In this document: positions 5,911 through 16,327 of the stretch, one piece after another | Numbering within the stretch: the stretch's first letter is position 1 | Layout: each line of letters starts with the position of its first letter | NCBI RefSeq assembly: GCF_001276715.1 | Contig: NZ_LIUQ01000077.1 | Location: 3,476-23,599 of the forward strand | Origin: Planktothricoides sp. SR001 | Lineage (GTDB): Bacteria; Cyanobacteriota; Cyanobacteriia; Cyanobacteriales; Laspinemataceae | DNA length: 20,124 bases | Reading direction: 5' to 3' | Notes under the pieces: model-generated | Database searches by the model: none | What the model was told of the DNA's origin: nothing | The model's input: the letters and a program-made list of their open reading frames with translations, nothing else | Translations under genes and position numbers: made by a program

Positions 5911-5935
5911 TTTTCGGGCTAGTTAAACTACCTAG

Positions 5936-6260
5936 AAACCAGAGCCGAGAAACCGGGTTTCTACGAGCGCTTTCACAGTAGGGGCGACGAGCGCATTCGC
6001 CCCTACATATCCACAACAGAAACCCGGTTATTTCGGGGACAAAAAAGCGCGATCGCCTACCCTGAACCGAGAAACGGGGTTTCTTTTTTGGTTTCTAGGG
6101 GCGACGAGCGCATTCGCCCCTACATATTCACCACAGAAACCCGGTTTCTTTGCTTGGGGGAAATGAGCGATCGCCTGTAACTCAGAAACCAAATTTTTAC
6201 CCCTGATTTAGGTCAATAGCCCAAAATGAAATGATCCGAAAACCCGGTTTTTTAGGTTTG
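5936..6260. repeat. Cluster of three MITE-like nested palindromic elements: outer inverted repeats agaaaccgggtttct, inner hairpin ggggcgacgagcgcattcgcccc
   Basis: The 30-nt core taggggcgacgagcgcattcgcccctacata occurs identically at 5979-6008 and 6097-6126. The terminal inverted repeats gaaaccgggtttc / gaaacccggtttc flank each unit. A third degenerate unit lies at 6184-6255. The tail ctttgcttggggg is shared with the 8397-8580 cluster. Confidence 0.8.
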
Positions 6261-6271
6261 TGTTTAATCAA

Positions 6272-7375
6272 TCAATTAACTCCTGCTAGTTCTGCGGCTT
6301 GAATTTTTAAAACATTCTGCAAAATATCAAAAAATGTCTGTTTGACCTTCAAGAGTAAGGTGCAATTTTCAGCATCCAGGGTTAGGGATTTAAACCACAA
6401 CTCACAGGTTTCTCTGAGGGTTTCGAGGTGTTGACAGAGGAGATTGGGAGCCAATTCTTTGGCACTCTGTTCTAGGATTTGGGGAGTAGATTGGAGTTGA
6501 TGGGTGAGGGTGAGGGTGTGAGGATTGTCTCCTGGGTTTTCAGATGAGGATGGGGGGATGGCAGTGATTTGCCATTGGTCGTTGGTGTCCAGTTCAATAA
6601 TGCCCTGTTGAGCGGCACGTTTTAGGAGGGCGCAACAACGAGCATGGGTGGCTTGAACACGATAAAGGCTATCAGCCGGAGTGGGTTGTCCGGCGGTGCT
6701 AATATTAATCGGAGCAACGCCGGTTAAAGGAACGCGGAAACTGTGCCAACGCAGCGCATCCATACCGATCTCTTTGATGAGTTCATCCGTGGCGATGTCG
6801 GGAATAGGATGGATTTTTTGGCTGGGTTTGTGAAAGGCGTAGAGTTTGATCGGTTGAACGATGATGAATTGAAATTGCTCTTTGGTGTAGCCCAAGCATT
6901 GCATCGCGGCATTGATAAGAACATCATATTTGCCATAGTTAGAGGGACGTAAAACGATGATTTTGTCGCAATGTTCTTGCAGAATTTGATCATAAATAGC
7001 AAGGTCTTTTAGGAGTTGGGTATATTCGCCGTTACGGTGTTGGAGAACTCTGTCGCAGTCGTCCCTAAAGTCGGCTGTTTTGATAAACCAGTCTTTGGGT
7101 TCGTCTTTGAGGGTGGTTTGTTCGATATCGGGGGGTAAGTCGGCGGCGAACTGGCGCGACATCGAGGCTTGGTAGATTTTGGAATGGGTTTTGAGGGTTT
7201 TAAGGAAGGTTTCGGGGTTGGGGGTTGGTTTGGGAGGGGCGATCGGGGTGTGGTTGGTTTGTTGGAGTAGGCTTTTGAAGGTGCCGGTGAAGGTAAAGCG
7301 CAGATCGGCTGATGAGGTGAGTTGCTCTGGGCGGATGGGTAGAGTATCGAGGTAGGTTAGGTGTGGTTTGGTCAT
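6272..7375 (-). CDS. DALR anticodon-binding domain protein: an arginyl-tRNA synthetase C-terminal-half paralog with an unrelated Pro-rich N-terminus
   Basis: 'IIVLRPSNYGKYDVLINAAMQCLGYTKEQFQFIIVQPIKLY' matches ArgRS 'YVLGADHHGYIPRLKAAAKAMG...VLLIQLVNLY'. 'GMDALRWHSF' is the DALR motif itself. 'SLYRVQATHARCCALLKRA' matches 'PVYYVQYAHARICSILRKA'. There is no HIGH/KMSKS catalytic N-terminal half. Confidence 0.7.
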   Translation of the reverse strand: MTKPHLTYLDTLPIRPEQLTSSADLRFTFTGTFKSLLQQTNHTPIAPPKPTPNPETFLKTLKTHSKIYQASMSRQFAADLPPDIEQTTLKDEPKDWFIKTADFRDDCDRVLQHRNGEYTQLLKDLAIYDQILQEHCDKIIVLRPSNYGKYDVLINAAMQCLGYTKEQFQFIIVQPIKLYAFHKPSQKIHPIPDIATDELIKEIGMDALRWHSFRVPLTGVAPINISTAGQPTPADSLYRVQATHARCCALLKRAAQQGIIELDTNDQWQITAIPPSSSENPGDNPHTLTLTHQLQSTPQILEQSAKELAPNLLCQHLETLRETCELWFKSLTLDAENCTLLLKVKQTFFDILQNVLKIQAAELAGVN

Positions 7376-7517
7376 AGCGAAGTTTTGGGGTGATGAGGGT
7401 TAGGTCGGATCAACTTTCTATTTTTTTGTTTGGTGAGCCTCTTGCCTGTGGCCTATTTTGCCTTGATTTAAGATATAACTGGACTAGACCAGTCGTACAA
7501 TTTTGTCAGGAGGTTGA

Positions 7518-7778
7518 TTGATGAATAAAATTACCGTAGAAGAAATTACTCAAGATTTGAACTACTATCTTCAACGGGCAAAAGCTGGAGAAAGTTTTGT
7601 GATTTTTCAAGCAGACCAACCTATTGCTAAAATTATTTCGGCTAAATCTGAGGGTGTTTTAGAGGCTTTTGATGATTTTCGCTCCAGAATTATTTCAGAA
7701 GGAATTGATTTAGATGGCGATGAAATCTTTGCTGATGTTCGGGACTACACCCCGACTACTGAAAAACCTTGCTGGTGA
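7518..7778 (+). CDS. Type II antitoxin, Phd/YefM (prevent-host-death)-like
   Basis: It is 86 aa with an 'MNKITVEEITQDLNYYLQRAKAGESFVI' N-terminus like Phd/YefM antitoxins. Its stop overlaps the toxin start (TGATG). Confidence 0.65.
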   Translation: MMNKITVEEITQDLNYYLQRAKAGESFVIFQADQPIAKIISAKSEGVLEAFDDFRSRIISEGIDLDGDEIFADVRDYTPTTEKPCW

Positions 7779-13678: not shown

Positions 13679-16327
13679 TTAATTTTCCAAGGTTAAGAGT
13701 TTTTGCCAATCAGTGATCGCCGAATCTGGCCACATCCAATTGTTAGCTAAAGCATTCGGTTGAAAATCACTTGCCGCTAATTTCATCACCATCTTTCTTT
13801 GCTTGGTCGCTTTACTTAATAAAACGTTTTTTTCCTCTGGGGAAACTCCCTCGCTAGATTTCATCATCACTAATGCTAAACCGGCATAAGCGGTCAAGGC
13901 TTCAGGATGATCTAAGGCTTGGGTGGGTTCGAGTAATGTCACCACTTTTAACCACATATCCGAAGCTAAATCGAGATTGCCTTCCGCGTAATAAGCAAAG
14001 GCTAAGGCATTGGCATAAAAGGTAGAATTGGAGTCACTTTTTACGGAGGATTCCCAAAACCGTCGAGCATCACTCACACTATAATCTTTGTTGCCAGTTT
14101 GCACAAATTGCCAAGCTAACCGACCAGAAAGAAAGTTAATTTCTGGAGTATTTTTTTTCTGGTTAGGCACCGCTTCTAAGGTGGCTTTTGCTTGTGGCAA
14201 TGCCCCGCGATCCAGTAATAAATTTACGGCAATAACTCCCTCGGATAATTTCCCTTGGGCAAAATTTTCAATGGCGATCGCGGATAACTCTGGAGTGCTG
14301 GCTTTCTGCAACGGATTCGGTTTTTCCTTAGTGGGTTCAGAAATGGGTTCAGAAGTGGCTAAACCCCGATCTTCCGTGACCGAACTGGTGGATAAAGATG
14401 TGCTGGTTTGAGGACGCGATCGCCAAAACCCGATCGCCCCAGCGAATAGGGCGATCGCCAGAAAACTGATGACCCCAAACCTCCACCTAAAAGCTTTGTG
14501 ACTTTTTGCCGGTTTTGCTAAGGCATCAGAATTGAATGCTGATGATTTCGCTTTCGGTGATGATATTGTTGATTTCGTCTGGGAGTTTTTCTCAGTCAAT
14601 TGACTTTCCCCGGCAACTGCTTTAAAAATTTCTTCCACGTCGTCAACTTCACTTTCATATCCGAGAATATGGGGCAAAAATTCATCTTTTGCAGATAGTT
14701 TCCCCGGTTTAGCTTCAGCAGATCCGAGTTTGCCAAGTCCTAACTCACTAAAAATATCAGAAACTAAAGATTCGGCGTCATTATCCGCTGCTTCTCCTAA
14801 GTCATAATCTAAAAATTCATGCTCGTCCTCATCTTCTATTTCCTCATCGAGGAATTCATCCTCACCCTCTAGTAATTCCTCATCCGAGAGTCGGAAAAAA
14901 TGATCATCATCATCGTCCCTATCATATCCTAAATCATCTTCTAAATCATCTGGGTCAGAGGGAGAAAATCGCCACAAAAAAGCGTCGCTATTACTATTGG
15001 GTTTTCGGGGAATATCCCTCAACTGCAATCGCGAATTGGGCATCGGTCGGGGGGGAATAAACAACTCCGTATCATTGCTGGGTTGCTGAGTCAAATACCC
15101 TTGATATTTCTCATGTAAATAAAGCACAGGTAGCGCCCAATACAACTGATCGGAACCGTAGGTAGACATCAATCCTTGTCTCGCCCGATTTAAACTCAAA
15201 TCTACAGGATAACCTTGTTTCAAGTTGTAGTAAAATAAGCGAGTTAAGGTCAAAGCCACCTGATCGGGAATGCGTTCGGCCATTGCCAAAACCGCCGGAA
15301 TCCCTCGATTGACCAGCACTTCGGCTAAATTACGGTGATTATTTGTTTCCGGCGTTTCCACTTTGGCGCTATGGGTACTCCGACAAGAGTTAAACACTGC
15401 TAGGTGAATGCCATTATTGACTAATAATCCGGCTAAATCATCGCCATTTAAAACTTCACCTAATCCCGTTTGTTGATTGACTAAATACAGTTCGCCCCCT
15501 CTAGAACCCAGGTTACTATGACCGGCGTAATGTAATACATGATAAGAATTTTGTTCGAGAACTTGGGTCAGCTTTTTTCGGTCGGGATGTTCGAGAATGT
15601 CTAATTCAATTTGGGGCAAAGGTGTATTTCCCCAAGTGCCATTAGTTGTCGGTTTTTTTAGTTCGGCTTTGAGGGCGTTTGCTTCTTGTTTTAAGGCTAA
15701 ATTTGCTTGATCTGTTGGTGCCGCTACGACCATTAAAATTTTCAACGGGCTGCTCGGTGGCGGGGGTAAAATTAATGATGATAAACTAGGTTGATAACGA
15801 GAAAAAATTACATCTTTGCCCGTGGCAATGGGGCGACTGTCTTCGTGGATCACTTCCCAAGGAAGACGGGGCAAAATACTGTCTTTTAGTCCTAAACGTA
15901 AGCGTAATACGGCCCCTTGGTTATGAGCGATCGCCTGTGCGGAGGTAAGGCGATCGCGCAGATCCCCTTGAAACAATGCCTCATACATTTCTCGACCCAG
16001 ATCCACCAGAGTGCGAATGTGAAAACGACTAGAAATCACCGCCACATCCCCATCTCCGGGCACAGTTTCCTCGTCCGTATCCCCGTGAGTATCATAAAGA
16101 ACATCATCTTCCAGAGACGCCGATAAACCATACCCGTGCCACAAACCGGCCACCGAGTCATCCATCAAGCGGCTGGCTTGTTCCAGCCATTCTTCCACCG
16201 GGAAAATCACCTGCTCTTCCGCAGGCAATACTCCTTTGGGTGACTCTTCGGTTCGCACCAGATAATGATTTTTTTCCCGGTTAATCGGGGTAATGGACAG
16301 ATGTAACTCTTCAAATTTTTGGCTCAC
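13679..16327 (-). CDS. CHAT-domain (caspase-like) protease with acidic linker, single TM helix and C-terminal TPR-like region
   Basis: The CHAT catalytic dyad context is 'HVLHYAGHS' (His) and 'LAVFNSCRS' (Cys), and the CHAT domain starts 'KILMVVAAPTDQANL'. A D/E-rich linker follows ('DDDDDHFF...EDEDEHEF'). The predicted TM is 'FGVISFLAIALFAGAIGFW'. The C-terminal ~240 aa carry TPR-like repeats ('YANALAFAYYAEGNLDLASDMW'). Confidence 0.8.
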   Translation of the reverse strand: MSQKFEELHLSITPINREKNHYLVRTEESPKGVLPAEEQVIFPVEEWLEQASRLMDDSVAGLWHGYGLSASLEDDVLYDTHGDTDEETVPGDGDVAVISSRFHIRTLVDLGREMYEALFQGDLRDRLTSAQAIAHNQGAVLRLRLGLKDSILPRLPWEVIHEDSRPIATGKDVIFSRYQPSLSSLILPPPPSSPLKILMVVAAPTDQANLALKQEANALKAELKKPTTNGTWGNTPLPQIELDILEHPDRKKLTQVLEQNSYHVLHYAGHSNLGSRGGELYLVNQQTGLGEVLNGDDLAGLLVNNGIHLAVFNSCRSTHSAKVETPETNNHRNLAEVLVNRGIPAVLAMAERIPDQVALTLTRLFYYNLKQGYPVDLSLNRARQGLMSTYGSDQLYWALPVLYLHEKYQGYLTQQPSNDTELFIPPRPMPNSRLQLRDIPRKPNSNSDAFLWRFSPSDPDDLEDDLGYDRDDDDDHFFRLSDEELLEGEDEFLDEEIEDEDEHEFLDYDLGEAADNDAESLVSDIFSELGLGKLGSAEAKPGKLSAKDEFLPHILGYESEVDDVEEIFKAVAGESQLTEKNSQTKSTISSPKAKSSAFNSDALAKPAKSHKAFRWRFGVISFLAIALFAGAIGFWRSRPQTSTSLSTSSVTEDRGLATSEPISEPTKEKPNPLQKASTPELSAIAIENFAQGKLSEGVIAVNLLLDRGALPQAKATLEAVPNQKKNTPEINFLSGRLAWQFVQTGNKDYSVSDARRFWESSVKSDSNSTFYANALAFAYYAEGNLDLASDMWLKVVTLLEPTQALDHPEALTAYAGLALVMMKSSEGVSPEEKNVLLSKATKQRKMVMKLAASDFQPNALANNWMWPDSAITDWQKLLTLEN

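What the first reader, a model, noticed from the sequence alone, without database searches (positions are those of the whole stretch)
6272..7375. Catalytically truncated arginyl-tRNA synthetase paralog with a DALR anticodon-binding domain and a novel N-terminus
The C-terminal ~260 aa align with the second half of ArgRS. This includes the literal DALR motif and the 'YVQ.AHAR.CS.LRKA' anticodon-binding helix. The HIGH-containing catalytic N-terminal half is replaced by a ~110-aa Pro-rich region of unknown affinity. Such a protein could bind tRNA-Arg without charging it, as a regulator, a tRNA-modifying adaptor or a decoy. It sits in a mobile-looking block beside a VapC PIN RNase, and many VapC toxins cleave specific tRNAs. 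Co-localisation of a tRNA-anticodon-binding module with a PIN toxin is suggestive.
Basis: partly seen in the sequence, partly recalled or inferred. Interest (0 to 1): 0.55.

Follow-up and report, generated by a model that had tools for sequence, protein, structure and literature searches.

The report
Dead arginyl-tRNA synthetase copy from toxin loci
The gene is an intact, well-conserved but catalytically dead relative of arginyl-tRNA synthetase, from a small family found only in filamentous cyanobacteria, where it normally sits right after a giant secreted toxin gene; the copy here is a stray one whose neighbouring VapC toxin looks incidental.

Summary

It is not a broken argS. More than 115 cyanobacterial homologues share its length and start, and no sequence encoding the ArgRS N-terminal half lies in the window.

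It cannot charge tRNA. The HIGH motif, the GADHH motif, the MSK loop and the N-terminal D-loop-reading domain are all absent. Most residues that are invariant in the ArgRS anticodon-binding domain are replaced. So binding of tRNA-Arg is unproven.

The N-terminus is folded. It is probably a degenerate first half of the Rossmann fold rather than a novel appendage.

The informative context is not VapC. In about 24 of 33 loci from other genomes, the gene lies directly downstream of a 1,400-2,900-aa polymorphic toxin gene whose tips vary (EndoU, AHH, nucleotidyltransferase). Two of these loci are four-gene cassettes on mobilisable plasmids.

The window copy is a stand-alone one. A vapBC cassette separates it from a decayed stub of a second copy.

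My best reading is a non-catalytic binding partner of the toxin system. I found no publication on this family.

The parts
6272..7375 (-). Intact gene for a 367-aa catalytically inactive ArgRS-like protein. It is identical to Planktothricoides sp. SR001 AM228_26455, which public sources label 'hypothetical protein' or 'DALR anticodon-binding domain-containing protein'.
7106..7375 (-). N-terminal region, aa 1-90. It is folded as beta-alpha-beta-alpha-beta and is probably a degenerate first half of the Rossmann fold. 'SSADLR' (aa 21-26, nt 7298-7315) sits where ArgRS has H-x-G-H-x-R. The only proline-rich stretch is aa 43-54.
6680..7105 (-). aa 91-232: the second half of the ArgRS catalytic domain plus the stem-contact fold. 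This is the most conserved part of the family. ArgRS 'GADHH' is replaced by 'RPSNY'. The MSK loop is replaced by 'HKPSQKIHP' (aa 182-190, nt 6806-6832).
   Evidence: hhalign. Column-by-column comparison with ArgRS. 74% mean identity to the window protein, against 47-48% for the flanking parts.
6749..6760 (-). Literal D-A-L-R motif, aa 206-209.
   Evidence: Sequence. It aligns with ArgRS D405/A406/R408 and is kept in 90-99% of the family.
6365..6658 (-). Pfam DALR_1 anticodon-binding domain match, aa 240-337, including the helix YRVQATHARCCALLKRA (aa 238-254, nt 6614-6664). The domain is acidic and most ArgRS-invariant residues are substituted.
   Evidence: Pfam. Substitutions. Charge.
7376..7517 (.). 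Divergent intergenic region between the ArgRS-like gene and vapB. The stretch around 7440-7500 is shared with the two closest 'orphan' loci (L001, L002), so it probably holds the gene's own promoter.
   Evidence: Alignment A5. blastn. Promoter-like hexamers are at chance level.
7518..8197 (+). vapBC-type toxin-antitoxin cassette: antitoxin at 7518-7778 and PIN-domain toxin at 7769-8197. It lies between the intact gene and the stub.
   Evidence: Pfam PIN E=3.9e-6 and a weak Phd/YefM match. vapB is 80% identical in L001, where vapC is truncated.
8205..8322 (-). Decayed 5' stub (start region plus about 30 codons) of a second ArgRS-like gene. It reads *TKPQQTYLDRPPIHPA*ITTFTDLRYVF, with the start codon lost and in-frame stops.
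   Evidence: Direct repeat with 7288-7404 at 75-76% identity. blastn and translation.
5930..6270 (.). Block of short palindromic repeats (AGAAACCCGGTTTCT type and GCGATCGC) downstream of the gene. A matching block lies at about 8323-8590 on the other side.
   Evidence: the repeat finder.

Best explanation
Shown:
- The gene encodes an intact ArgRS-derived pseudo-enzyme under purifying selection.
- It keeps the class I synthetase fold and the DALR helical domain.
- It has lost the HIGH motif, the GADHH motif, the MSK loop, the N-terminal D-loop-reading domain and the large insertion domain. It therefore cannot activate arginine or charge tRNA.
- It belongs to a small, tight family confined to (mostly filamentous) cyanobacteria.
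- The family's usual genomic place is immediately downstream of, and on the same strand as, a giant secreted polymorphic toxin gene. That toxin has a conserved core of about 1,100 aa (leishmanolysin-like HExxH region, LysM, PPC, apolipoprotein-like helices) and interchangeable C-terminal toxin tips. An S2P/M50 intramembrane protease and an HlyD-like protein are often nearby.
- The window copy is a stand-alone copy with no toxin gene within 20 kb. It sits in a scarred, repeat-flanked spot where a vapBC cassette separates it from the decayed stub of another copy.

Inferred:
- The protein works by binding rather than by catalysis, in the producer's cytoplasm, as a constant partner of the conserved part of the toxin system.
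- The most likely role is to keep the toxin or a shared toxin-handling step harmless inside the cell, that is, a generic immunity-like or escort role. That would also explain why toxin-less 'orphan' copies such as this one are kept.
- Whether its ligand is a protein or a tRNA-like RNA is open. The adjacency to VapC is incidental.
For: Identity and fold:

Loss of catalysis:
- 25 of the 53 ArgRS columns that are at least 85% conserved in the aligned half are changed. These include Y318->Q, G342/D344/H345 and M385/S386/R388/G390.
- The gene scores 67.8 bits on TIGR00456. Genuine ArgRS fragments of similar span score 170-258 bits.

Real gene, not a wreck:
- More than 115 homologues share the start and length, with 17 invariant residues.
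- No ArgRS N-terminal coding remnant occurs in the window or in the 33 other loci.

Tight clade:
- Only 11 representatives score E<1e-30 among 1.84 billion proteins. The next hits are full-length ArgRS.
- No viral contigs carry it.

Toxin linkage:
- The giant gene lies directly upstream in about 24 of 33 genome loci, with gaps of 32-250 bp in 12 of the 18 measured pairs.
- Giant-gene homologues carry variable AHH, EndoU, RNase-A-like and Ntox30 toxin domains, and also subtilase and leishmanolysin peptidase domains.
- A SUKH-type immunity ORF lies between the toxin gene and the ArgRS-like gene in L005.
- The same four-gene cassette occurs on two mobilisable plasmids.

Constant partner:
- The ArgRS-like protein tree follows taxonomy, not toxin-tip type.

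Orphan copy:
- tblastn finds no giant gene, M50 protease or other cluster genes in the window.
- Stub and vapBC cassette.

Acidity:
- Acidic character is typical of binding/neutralising proteins: median pI 5.28, and net charge -8 for the DALR domain.
Against: - No experiment or interaction prediction links the protein physically to the toxin. Gene order is the only evidence.
- Classical immunity proteins are small and vary with the toxin tip. This protein is large, and at 50-77% identity it is about as conserved as the toxin core.
- Some loci already carry a separate candidate immunity ORF (L005, L010, L018).
- The strongest conservation lies in the former active-site region, where many polar residues are invariant (D108, Q112, R143, H182, E198, N224). 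That could mean a new small-molecule ligand or even a new catalytic activity rather than plain binding.
- The DALR motif and R246 are kept, so RNA binding is not excluded.
- I could not check whether Planktothricoides carries the giant toxin or a canonical argS elsewhere in its genome.
Confidence: 0.6

Rival explanations
1. The protein binds tRNA-Arg through its DALR domain without charging it. It acts as a decoy, protector or adaptor that works together with, or against, the neighbouring VapC PIN RNase.
For: The DALR_1 domain is present. The DALR motif, Q241 and R246 are largely retained. The stem-contact fold is highly conserved. VapBC lies next to the gene here, and vapB also does in Spirulina subsalsa. 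DALRD3 is a precedent for a non-catalytic DALR protein that binds specific tRNA-Arg species (PMC7237682).
Against: The A20-reading N-terminal domain is absent. ArgRS-invariant residues of the anticodon domain and the C-terminal Met are replaced. The domain is acidic and is the less conserved half. vapC is intact only in the window, is fragmentary in L001 and L002, and is absent from the other loci; L002 has MazEF instead. No tRNA gene is consistently nearby and there is none in the window.
Confidence: 0.15
2. It is the cognate, tip-specific immunity protein of the upstream polymorphic toxin, and neutralises a particular nuclease or RNase domain.
For: It occupies the canonical slot immediately after the toxin gene. 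No ORF of 40 aa or more intervenes in L011 (EndoU tip) or L014 (AHH tip). It is acidic. Orphan copies exist, as they do for immunity genes.
Against: The same protein follows toxins with EndoU, AHH, nucleotidyltransferase and several unrelated tips. Its phylogeny tracks taxonomy rather than tip type. Separate candidate immunity ORFs, one of them SUKH-type, lie between the toxin gene and this gene in other loci.
Confidence: 0.1
3. It is a sensor or regulator. The remnant arginine/tRNA pocket senses arginine or uncharged tRNA and tunes expression or release of the toxin.
For: Part of the arginine pocket survives, with D124 aligned to ArgRS D322 (its role in binding the guanidinium group is from my own knowledge of yeast ArgRS). 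The former active-site region is the most conserved part.
Against: There is no DNA-binding or signalling output domain. No conserved RNA element lies upstream. Half of the pocket is changed (Y318->Q; the HIGH side is unrecognisable).
Confidence: 0.1
4. It is a pseudogenised or fragmentary argS: the C-terminal half of the housekeeping gene after a frameshift or truncation.
For: It aligns only with the second half of ArgRS.
Against: The start, length and N-terminal sequence are conserved in more than 115 homologues across several cyanobacterial orders. No ArgRS N-terminal coding sequence lies upstream. True ArgRS fragments score 170-258 bits on TIGR00456, against 67.8 here. Copies occur on plasmids of strains with complete genomes, and one is annotated argS_2.
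Confidence: 0.02

Closest known systems
Arginyl-tRNA synthetase (ArgRS, class Ia; TIGR00456; PDB 3fnr, 1iq0, 1bs2/1f7u, 2zue/2zuf, 5b63)
   Different: No N-terminal Add-1 domain, no HIGH, no GADHH, no MSK loop, and no large insertion between the Rossmann halves. The C-terminal Met and most invariant residues of the anticodon domain are replaced. 367 aa instead of about 560-600. Scores far below the family cut-off.
DALRD3 (vertebrate DALR-domain protein, partner of the METTL2 m3C methyltransferase; PMC7237682)
   Same: A non-catalytic protein with a C-terminal DALR domain and an N-terminal part that lacks recognisable synthetase motifs. It is thought to derive from an ArgRS duplicate, and it works as a binding subunit for another protein.
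   Different: DALRD3 is restricted to vertebrates and its partner is a tRNA methyltransferase. No methyltransferase occurs in the conserved cyanobacterial neighbourhood. I did not test direct sequence relatedness. tRNA binding is demonstrated for DALRD3 but not here.
NrtL, 'ArgS-related anticodon-binding protein' (NCBIfam NF045898)
   Same: Another curated bacterial family of short ArgRS-related, non-synthetase proteins. There is a weak match over aa 185-324.
   Different: 46.4 bits against a cut-off of 340, so this gene is not a member. I found no literature on NrtL in the searchable library.
Extra aaRS copies encoded in antibiotic gene clusters as self-immunity (for example resistant ArgRS in tiarin/trifolitoxin-like clusters; bioRxiv 10.64898/2025.12.02.691738)
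   Same: A synthetase-derived gene placed next to a toxin or antibiotic determinant and proposed to protect the producer.
   Different: Those copies are full-length, active, resistant enzymes that replace the target. This protein is catalytically dead and could protect only as a decoy or binder. The toxin here is a giant protein, not a modified peptide.
Polymorphic toxin systems (Zhang et al. 2012, PMC3482391)
   Same: The upstream giant proteins fit the definition: a conserved N-terminal and central part, variable C-terminal AHH, EndoU, RNase-A-like or Ntox30 tips, and SUKH-type immunity ORFs.
   Different: That survey does not contain the words 'arginyl' or 'anticodon', and its few mentions of 'synthetase' concern other enzymes. 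So it describes no ArgRS-like component and no S2P/M50-linked export route. A large downstream protein that stays constant regardless of toxin tip is not part of the described scheme.

Membership tests
Arginyl-tRNA synthetase (TIGR00456 argS) | Whole-protein score at or above the curated cut-off (261.65 bits) | tested here: not met
   67.8 bits. True ArgRS C-terminal fragments score 170-258 bits.
Arginyl-tRNA synthetase (TIGR00456 argS) | HIGH signature in the first Rossmann half | tested here: not met
   No HIGH in the sequence. The best candidate position reads SSADLR. ArgRS E121/S124/N126/P127/G129 have no aligned counterpart.
Arginyl-tRNA synthetase (TIGR00456 argS) | GADHH motif and MSK(R)-type loop in the second Rossmann half | tested here: not met
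   G342/D344/H345 become P/N(T)/Y. M385/S386 are unaligned. R388/G390 become P/Q.
Arginyl-tRNA synthetase (TIGR00456 argS) | N-terminal Add-1 domain that reads D-loop A20 | tested here: not met
   The protein begins at about the position of the Rossmann fold. No match to ArgRS residues 1-120.
Arginyl-tRNA synthetase (TIGR00456 argS) | Class I Rossmann fold plus C-terminal helical anticodon-binding domain | tested here: met
Pfam DALR_1 (PF05746) | Score above the gathering threshold (22.3 bits) | tested here: met
   38.8 bits, E=1.1e-9, aa 240-337 matching profile positions 1-85 of 117.
NrtL (NCBIfam NF045898) | Score above the equivalog cut-off (340 bits) | tested here: not met
   46.4 bits.
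DALRD3-like tRNA-targeting adaptor | Specific binding of tRNA-Arg isoacceptors | not testable with these tools
   Needs biochemistry. Indirect indicators are unfavourable: substituted anticodon-domain residues and an acidic domain.
DALRD3-like tRNA-targeting adaptor | A partner tRNA-modifying enzyme, encoded nearby or interacting | tested here: not met
   The recurring neighbours that were annotated include no tRNA-modifying enzyme. They are the giant toxin, an M50 protease, an HlyD-like protein, PEP-CTERM proteins, toxin-antitoxin pairs and several small proteins without family matches.
Polymorphic-toxin immunity protein | Encoded immediately downstream of the toxin gene | tested here: met
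   Same strand, with gaps of 32-250 bp in 12 of the 18 measured pairs. No intervening ORF in L011 and L014. Not met in this window, which has no toxin gene.
Polymorphic-toxin immunity protein | Co-varies with the C-terminal toxin domain | tested here: not met
   The same family follows EndoU, AHH, nucleotidyltransferase and unrelated tips. Its tree follows taxonomy.
VapBC-associated factor | Conserved co-localisation with an intact VapC | tested here: not met
   vapC is intact only in the window, fragmentary in L001 and L002, and absent from the other loci.

The most novel reading that the evidence does not exclude
A synthetase fossil has been recruited as a universal, tip-independent safety or handling subunit of a cyanobacterial giant polymorphic toxin system. 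One possibility is a decoy that mimics ArgRS or a tRNA-binding surface and so holds the toxin, or a shared activation or entry module, inactive in the producer. Orphan copies like the one in this window would then give toxin-less strains protection against their neighbours. This would be the first aaRS-derived component of an inter-bacterial toxin system, and a new class of broad-spectrum immunity.
Probability: 0.25. Interest if true: 0.8.

Novelty: new variant of a known kind. Interest (0 to 1): 0.58.

Why it matters
Catalytically dead synthetase paralogues are known to take on new jobs; HisZ (from my own knowledge) and DALRD3 are examples. None has been tied to inter-bacterial toxin systems.

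Here a structurally confident pseudo-ArgRS is fixed next to giant polymorphic toxins across Nostocales, Oscillatoriales, Spirulinales and Pseudanabaena-type cyanobacteria. Compact mobilisable plasmid cassettes are among these loci.

This gives three things:
- a concrete, testable hypothesis for an unannotated family that databases mislabel as 'arginyl-tRNA synthetase' or attach to the GO term for arginyl-tRNA aminoacylation;
- a marker gene for finding a poorly described toxin system in bloom- and mat-forming cyanobacteria;
- a case study of which parts of a synthetase survive after catalysis is lost. Here the old active-site half is more constrained than the anticodon domain.

For this window specifically, the suggested VapC/tRNA story is most likely a coincidence of neighbourhood.

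Tried and rejected
- NrtL. Two literature searches gave nothing relevant. The short ArgRS-like proteins from the representative search turned out to be fragments of real ArgRS, not NrtL.
- Origin of the paralogue. The best-scoring ArgRS relatives carry almost no names; the one named is a Mycoplasmoidaceae MAG. So I could neither infer a cyanobacterial origin nor obtain a cyanobacterial ArgRS query.
- Canonical argS in Planktothricoides. I could not test this.
- afdb50 fold search. The library was unavailable.
- Delagoutte et al. 2000 (tRNA contact residues). The paper is not held, so residue-level anticodon contacts were not mapped.
- tRNA genes or known RNA families near the gene. None was consistent across loci, and Rfam found nothing in the window.
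- Conserved RNA structure upstream of the gene. Only an A/C-rich stretch of about 30 nt before the ATG is conserved.
- PADLOC. The ArgRS-like protein matches no known or candidate anti-phage defence protein.
- Viral contigs. No relatives.
- PDB profile search with the toxin core, looking for a hidden tRNase such as colicin D. Only weak leishmanolysin, LysM, PPC and apolipoprotein-like matches appeared.
- Promoter and terminator scan. Counts were at chance level.
- Idea that the MVP gene replaces the giant toxin. Rejected: BLAST clustering did not group the MVP ORF with any ORF from the other loci, and the giant proteins scanned show no Vault domains.
Full report
**1. The observation**

The ORF is exactly as described: 6272..7375 on the minus strand, ATG start, 367 aa. 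It is 100% identical to a protein of Planktothricoides sp. SR001 (AM228_26455), which therefore names the source organism.

- Pfam DALR_1 matches aa 240-337 above its threshold (38.8 against 22.3 bits).
- The NCBIfam argS model matches aa 63-357 to profile positions 257-559 of 569, but with only 67.8 bits against a cut-off of 261.65.
- A profile of 115 family members against a profile of 34 full-length ArgRS gives probability 100%, E=1.2e-40, aligning aa 91-364 with ArgRS 289-561.
- The literal DALR motif (aa 206-209) and the helix YRVQATHARCCALLKRA (aa 238-254) are present.
- A VapC PIN protein with its antitoxin lies divergently upstream.

The factual core of the finding is correct.

**2. 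Not a pseudogene**

More than 115 homologues are 340-395 aa long, 50-77% identical, and cover 91-100% of the query, including the same MTKP... start. Seventeen residues are invariant.

tblastn with six full-length ArgRS against the window and 33 related loci matches only ArgRS positions from about 295 onward. Nothing encodes an N-terminal half anywhere.

Real ArgRS gene fragments of similar span score 170-258 bits on the argS model, against 67.8 here. This is a long-diverged paralogue, not a recent wreck.

A search of 1.84 billion representative proteins finds only 11 at E<1e-30: four full-length clusters plus fragments. The scores then drop to ordinary full-length ArgRS at about 113 bits. The family is small and tight. 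All organism names are cyanobacteria, apart from one 5.7-kb contig of a metagenome bin labelled Roseivirgaceae. No viral contig carries it.

**3. What is kept and what is lost**

In the aligned half, 53 ArgRS columns are at least 85% conserved. The family keeps 28 of them.

Kept:
- the GDD.DRV..DG..T...D segment, including D124, which aligns with ArgRS D322;
- the DALR motif;
- Q241, R246 and P310.

Lost:
- Y318->Q;
- K329;
- G342/D344/H345 (GADHH becomes RPxxY);
- the MSK-type loop (M385/S386/R388/G390);
- D423;
- in the anticodon domain, N434->D, Y438->R, Y441->S/A, E478, Y519, R535 and the invariant C-terminal Met.

The replacements are themselves conserved within the family. This looks like a change of function rather than decay. 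With HIGH also absent, aminoacylation is excluded.

**4. The N-terminus**

- Only aa 43-54 is Pro-rich.
- The first 90 aa are conserved in the family, with R26, L37 and Y68 conserved in at least 90% of members or invariant.
- They are predicted to fold as strand 5-10, helix 30-39, strand 42-45, helix 54-61, strand 67-70. That is the order of a Rossmann first half.
- When aa 1-72 alone are compared with the ArgRS profile, the single local match is aa 10-62 against ArgRS 124-177. This is exactly beta1, the HIGH loop, alphaA and beta2, with R26 on the Arg of HxGHxR. The statistics are weak (E=0.039, probability 1.3%).

I infer, with moderate confidence, that the N-terminus is the degenerate first Rossmann half, with the Add-1 domain and the large insertion deleted. 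The tools gave no residue-level superposition.

**5. Where the constraint lies**

Mean identity to the window protein is 74% for aa 91-232 (the dead catalytic half plus the stem-contact fold). It is 47-48% for the N-terminus and for the DALR domain. The DALR domain also has a variable indel at aa 257-285.

The family is acidic: median pI 5.28. Its DALR domain has median pI 4.9 and net charge -8, against 6.65 and 0 in ArgRS.

In bacteria, A20 in the D-loop is the main arginine identity element (PMC9976931). From my own knowledge, the Add-1 domain is what reads it, and that domain is missing here. Together these facts weaken, but do not exclude, the idea that the protein is a module for recognising tRNA-Arg.

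**6. Genomic context in other genomes**

A scan of one genome per species returned 33 loci. ORF clustering shows a giant gene (1,400-2,900 aa) immediately upstream on the same strand in about 24 of them. Gaps are 32-250 bp in 12 of the 18 measured pairs.

The giant proteins share a core of about 1,100 aa at 55-79% identity. The core holds an HELLHGLGF metalloprotease-like motif, LysM, PPC-type domains, an E/R-rich coiled coil and apolipoprotein-like helices.

Their homologues carry variable domains: the toxin domains AHH, EndoU, RNase-A-like and Ntox30, and also the peptidase domains subtilase, leishmanolysin and M23. Within the fetched loci the last 100-270 aa differ:
- EndoU in L010 and L011;
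- AHH in L014;
- a nucleotidyltransferase in L018;
- unrelated tails elsewhere.

This is the architecture of polymorphic toxins (PMC3482391).

In L005 a SUKH-type ORF, the classic immunity family, sits between the toxin gene and the ArgRS-like gene. L010 and L018 have ORFs of 126-129 aa in that position. L011 and L014 have no ORF of 40 aa or more there.

Other recurring neighbours:
- an S2P/M50 intramembrane protease related to RiPP-maturation HExxH proteases;
- an HlyD-like protein;
- PEP-CTERM proteins.

On two mobilisable plasmids (Calothrix sp. PCC 6303 pCAL6303.03 and Nostoc sp. HK-01 plasmid2) the unit is a compact four-gene cassette: S2P protease, small membrane protein, giant protein, ArgRS-like protein. 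The Nostoc copy is annotated argS_2, which implies another argS in that genome.

The tree of the ArgRS-like proteins follows taxonomy (Nostocales cluster, Microcoleus cluster), not toxin-tip type. The protein is therefore a constant partner of the conserved part of the system, not a tip-specific immunity protein.

**7. The window itself**

None of the cluster genes is present in the 20 kb. The flanks are housekeeping genes: a diacylglycerol kinase, YbeY, a peptide chain release factor, an ABC-transporter ATPase, a nucleotidyltransferase, cytochrome c and a Mur ligase.

The 117 nt that span the gene's start (7288-7404) are repeated at 75-76% identity at 8205-8322. Translated, the second copy reads *TKPQQTYLDRPPIHPA*ITTFTDLRYVF. 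This is a decayed 5' stub of another allele of the same gene.

The vapBC cassette lies exactly between the stub and the intact gene. Blocks of short palindromic repeats flank the whole segment.

The two closest relatives are Spirulina subsalsa (L001) and Phormidium sp. CCY1219 (L002).
- L001 keeps vapB at 80% identity but only 44 codons of vapC.
- L002 keeps a 30-codon vapC remnant and has a MazEF-type pair next to the gene.
- Both have a PEP-CTERM protein upstream, of the kind that lies beside the ArgRS-like gene in fuller clusters (between it and the giant gene in L020-L022).

But the VapC association belongs to one subclade and is decaying there. That argues against a shared function.

**8. 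Mechanism**

Shown: a folded, conserved, non-catalytic ArgRS derivative that is genetically coupled to a giant polymorphic toxin system, plus stand-alone copies.

Inferred: it acts by binding in the cytoplasm, as a constant partner of the conserved part of the toxin system. The role would be generic protection or escort, which also gives a reason to keep orphan copies.

I put about 0.6 on this overall statement. Most of the uncertainty lies in the mechanistic part.

Rivals:
- tRNA-Arg adaptor or decoy linked to VapC (0.15);
- tip-specific immunity protein (0.1);
- arginine or tRNA sensor (0.1);
- pseudogene (0.02).

**9. Comparison with known families, and novelty**

- It is not an ArgRS. Four defining features were tested and not met.
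- It is not NrtL (46 against 340 bits).
- It meets the Pfam DALR_1 threshold.
- It resembles DALRD3 in concept, as a dead ArgRS-like binding subunit, but without a methyltransferase partner.
- It also echoes the extra ArgRS copies that protect producers of ArgRS inhibitors. Those copies are active enzymes.

Searches of the paper library found nothing on this cyanobacterial family or on an ArgRS-like component of polymorphic toxin systems.

I rate it a new variant of a known kind (a synthetase-derived pseudo-enzyme) in an unreported context, and of moderate to good interest.

Noticed in passing
window 8580-11204 (-): An 874-aa bacterial homologue of the eukaryotic Major Vault Protein (four Vault repeats, Vault_2/3/4 and the MVP shoulder domain). 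It lies directly upstream of, and on the same strand as, the decayed ArgRS-like stub. No MVP occurs next to the family in the 33 other loci.
   Followed up: partly
window 8205-8322 (-): A decayed 5' stub of a second ArgRS-like gene, 75% identical to 7288-7404, with the start codon lost and in-frame stops. It is evidence of gene replacement or insertion by the vapBC block.
   Followed up: yes
window 11573-12537 (-): An overlapping gene pair: DUF6932 (which matches the PADLOC candidate defence protein PDC-M63A) followed by an HTH_3 protein. It is a possible toxin-antitoxin or defence module.
   Followed up: no
window 13679-16327 (-): An 882-aa CHAT-domain (caspase-like) protein with a weak SAVED_CHAT match in PADLOC. 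A small cNMP-binding protein lies next to it at 13205-13588.
   Followed up: no
window 5930-6270 and 8323-8590: Dense arrays of short palindromic repeats (AGAAACCCGGTTTCT type) and HIP1-like GCGATCGC sites bracket the ArgRS-like/vapBC segment. They generate spurious ORFs with recurring 'RNPVS' and 'ETRFL' peptides.
   Followed up: partly
L034 4834-13029 (Calothrix sp. PCC 6303 plasmid pCAL6303.03); L035 5379-12996 (Nostoc sp. HK-01 plasmid2): The same four-gene cassette sits on two MOBV-type mobilisable plasmids: S2P/M50 protease, small PEP-CTERM-like membrane protein, giant toxin-like protein, ArgRS-like protein. The Nostoc copy is mis-annotated as 'argS_2 arginyl-tRNA synthetase'.
   Followed up: partly
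L003 1006-9750; L006 4317-9353; L012 9926-11071: Several loci show the giant gene or the ArgRS-like gene split into pieces. In L003 opposite-strand ORFs lie between the pieces, and in L006 and L012 the genes look frameshifted. This could be real decay or assembly error in metagenome bins.
   Followed up: no
L017 5052-8768 and L016 1776-4061: In some Nostoc loci the giant core protein is replaced by other large proteins: subtilase + SH3 + lipase_3, or M50 + lipase_3. Two small unknown ORFs (106 and 141 aa) follow, and then the ArgRS-like gene. The ArgRS-like gene may therefore partner more than one kind of large secreted protein.
   Followed up: no
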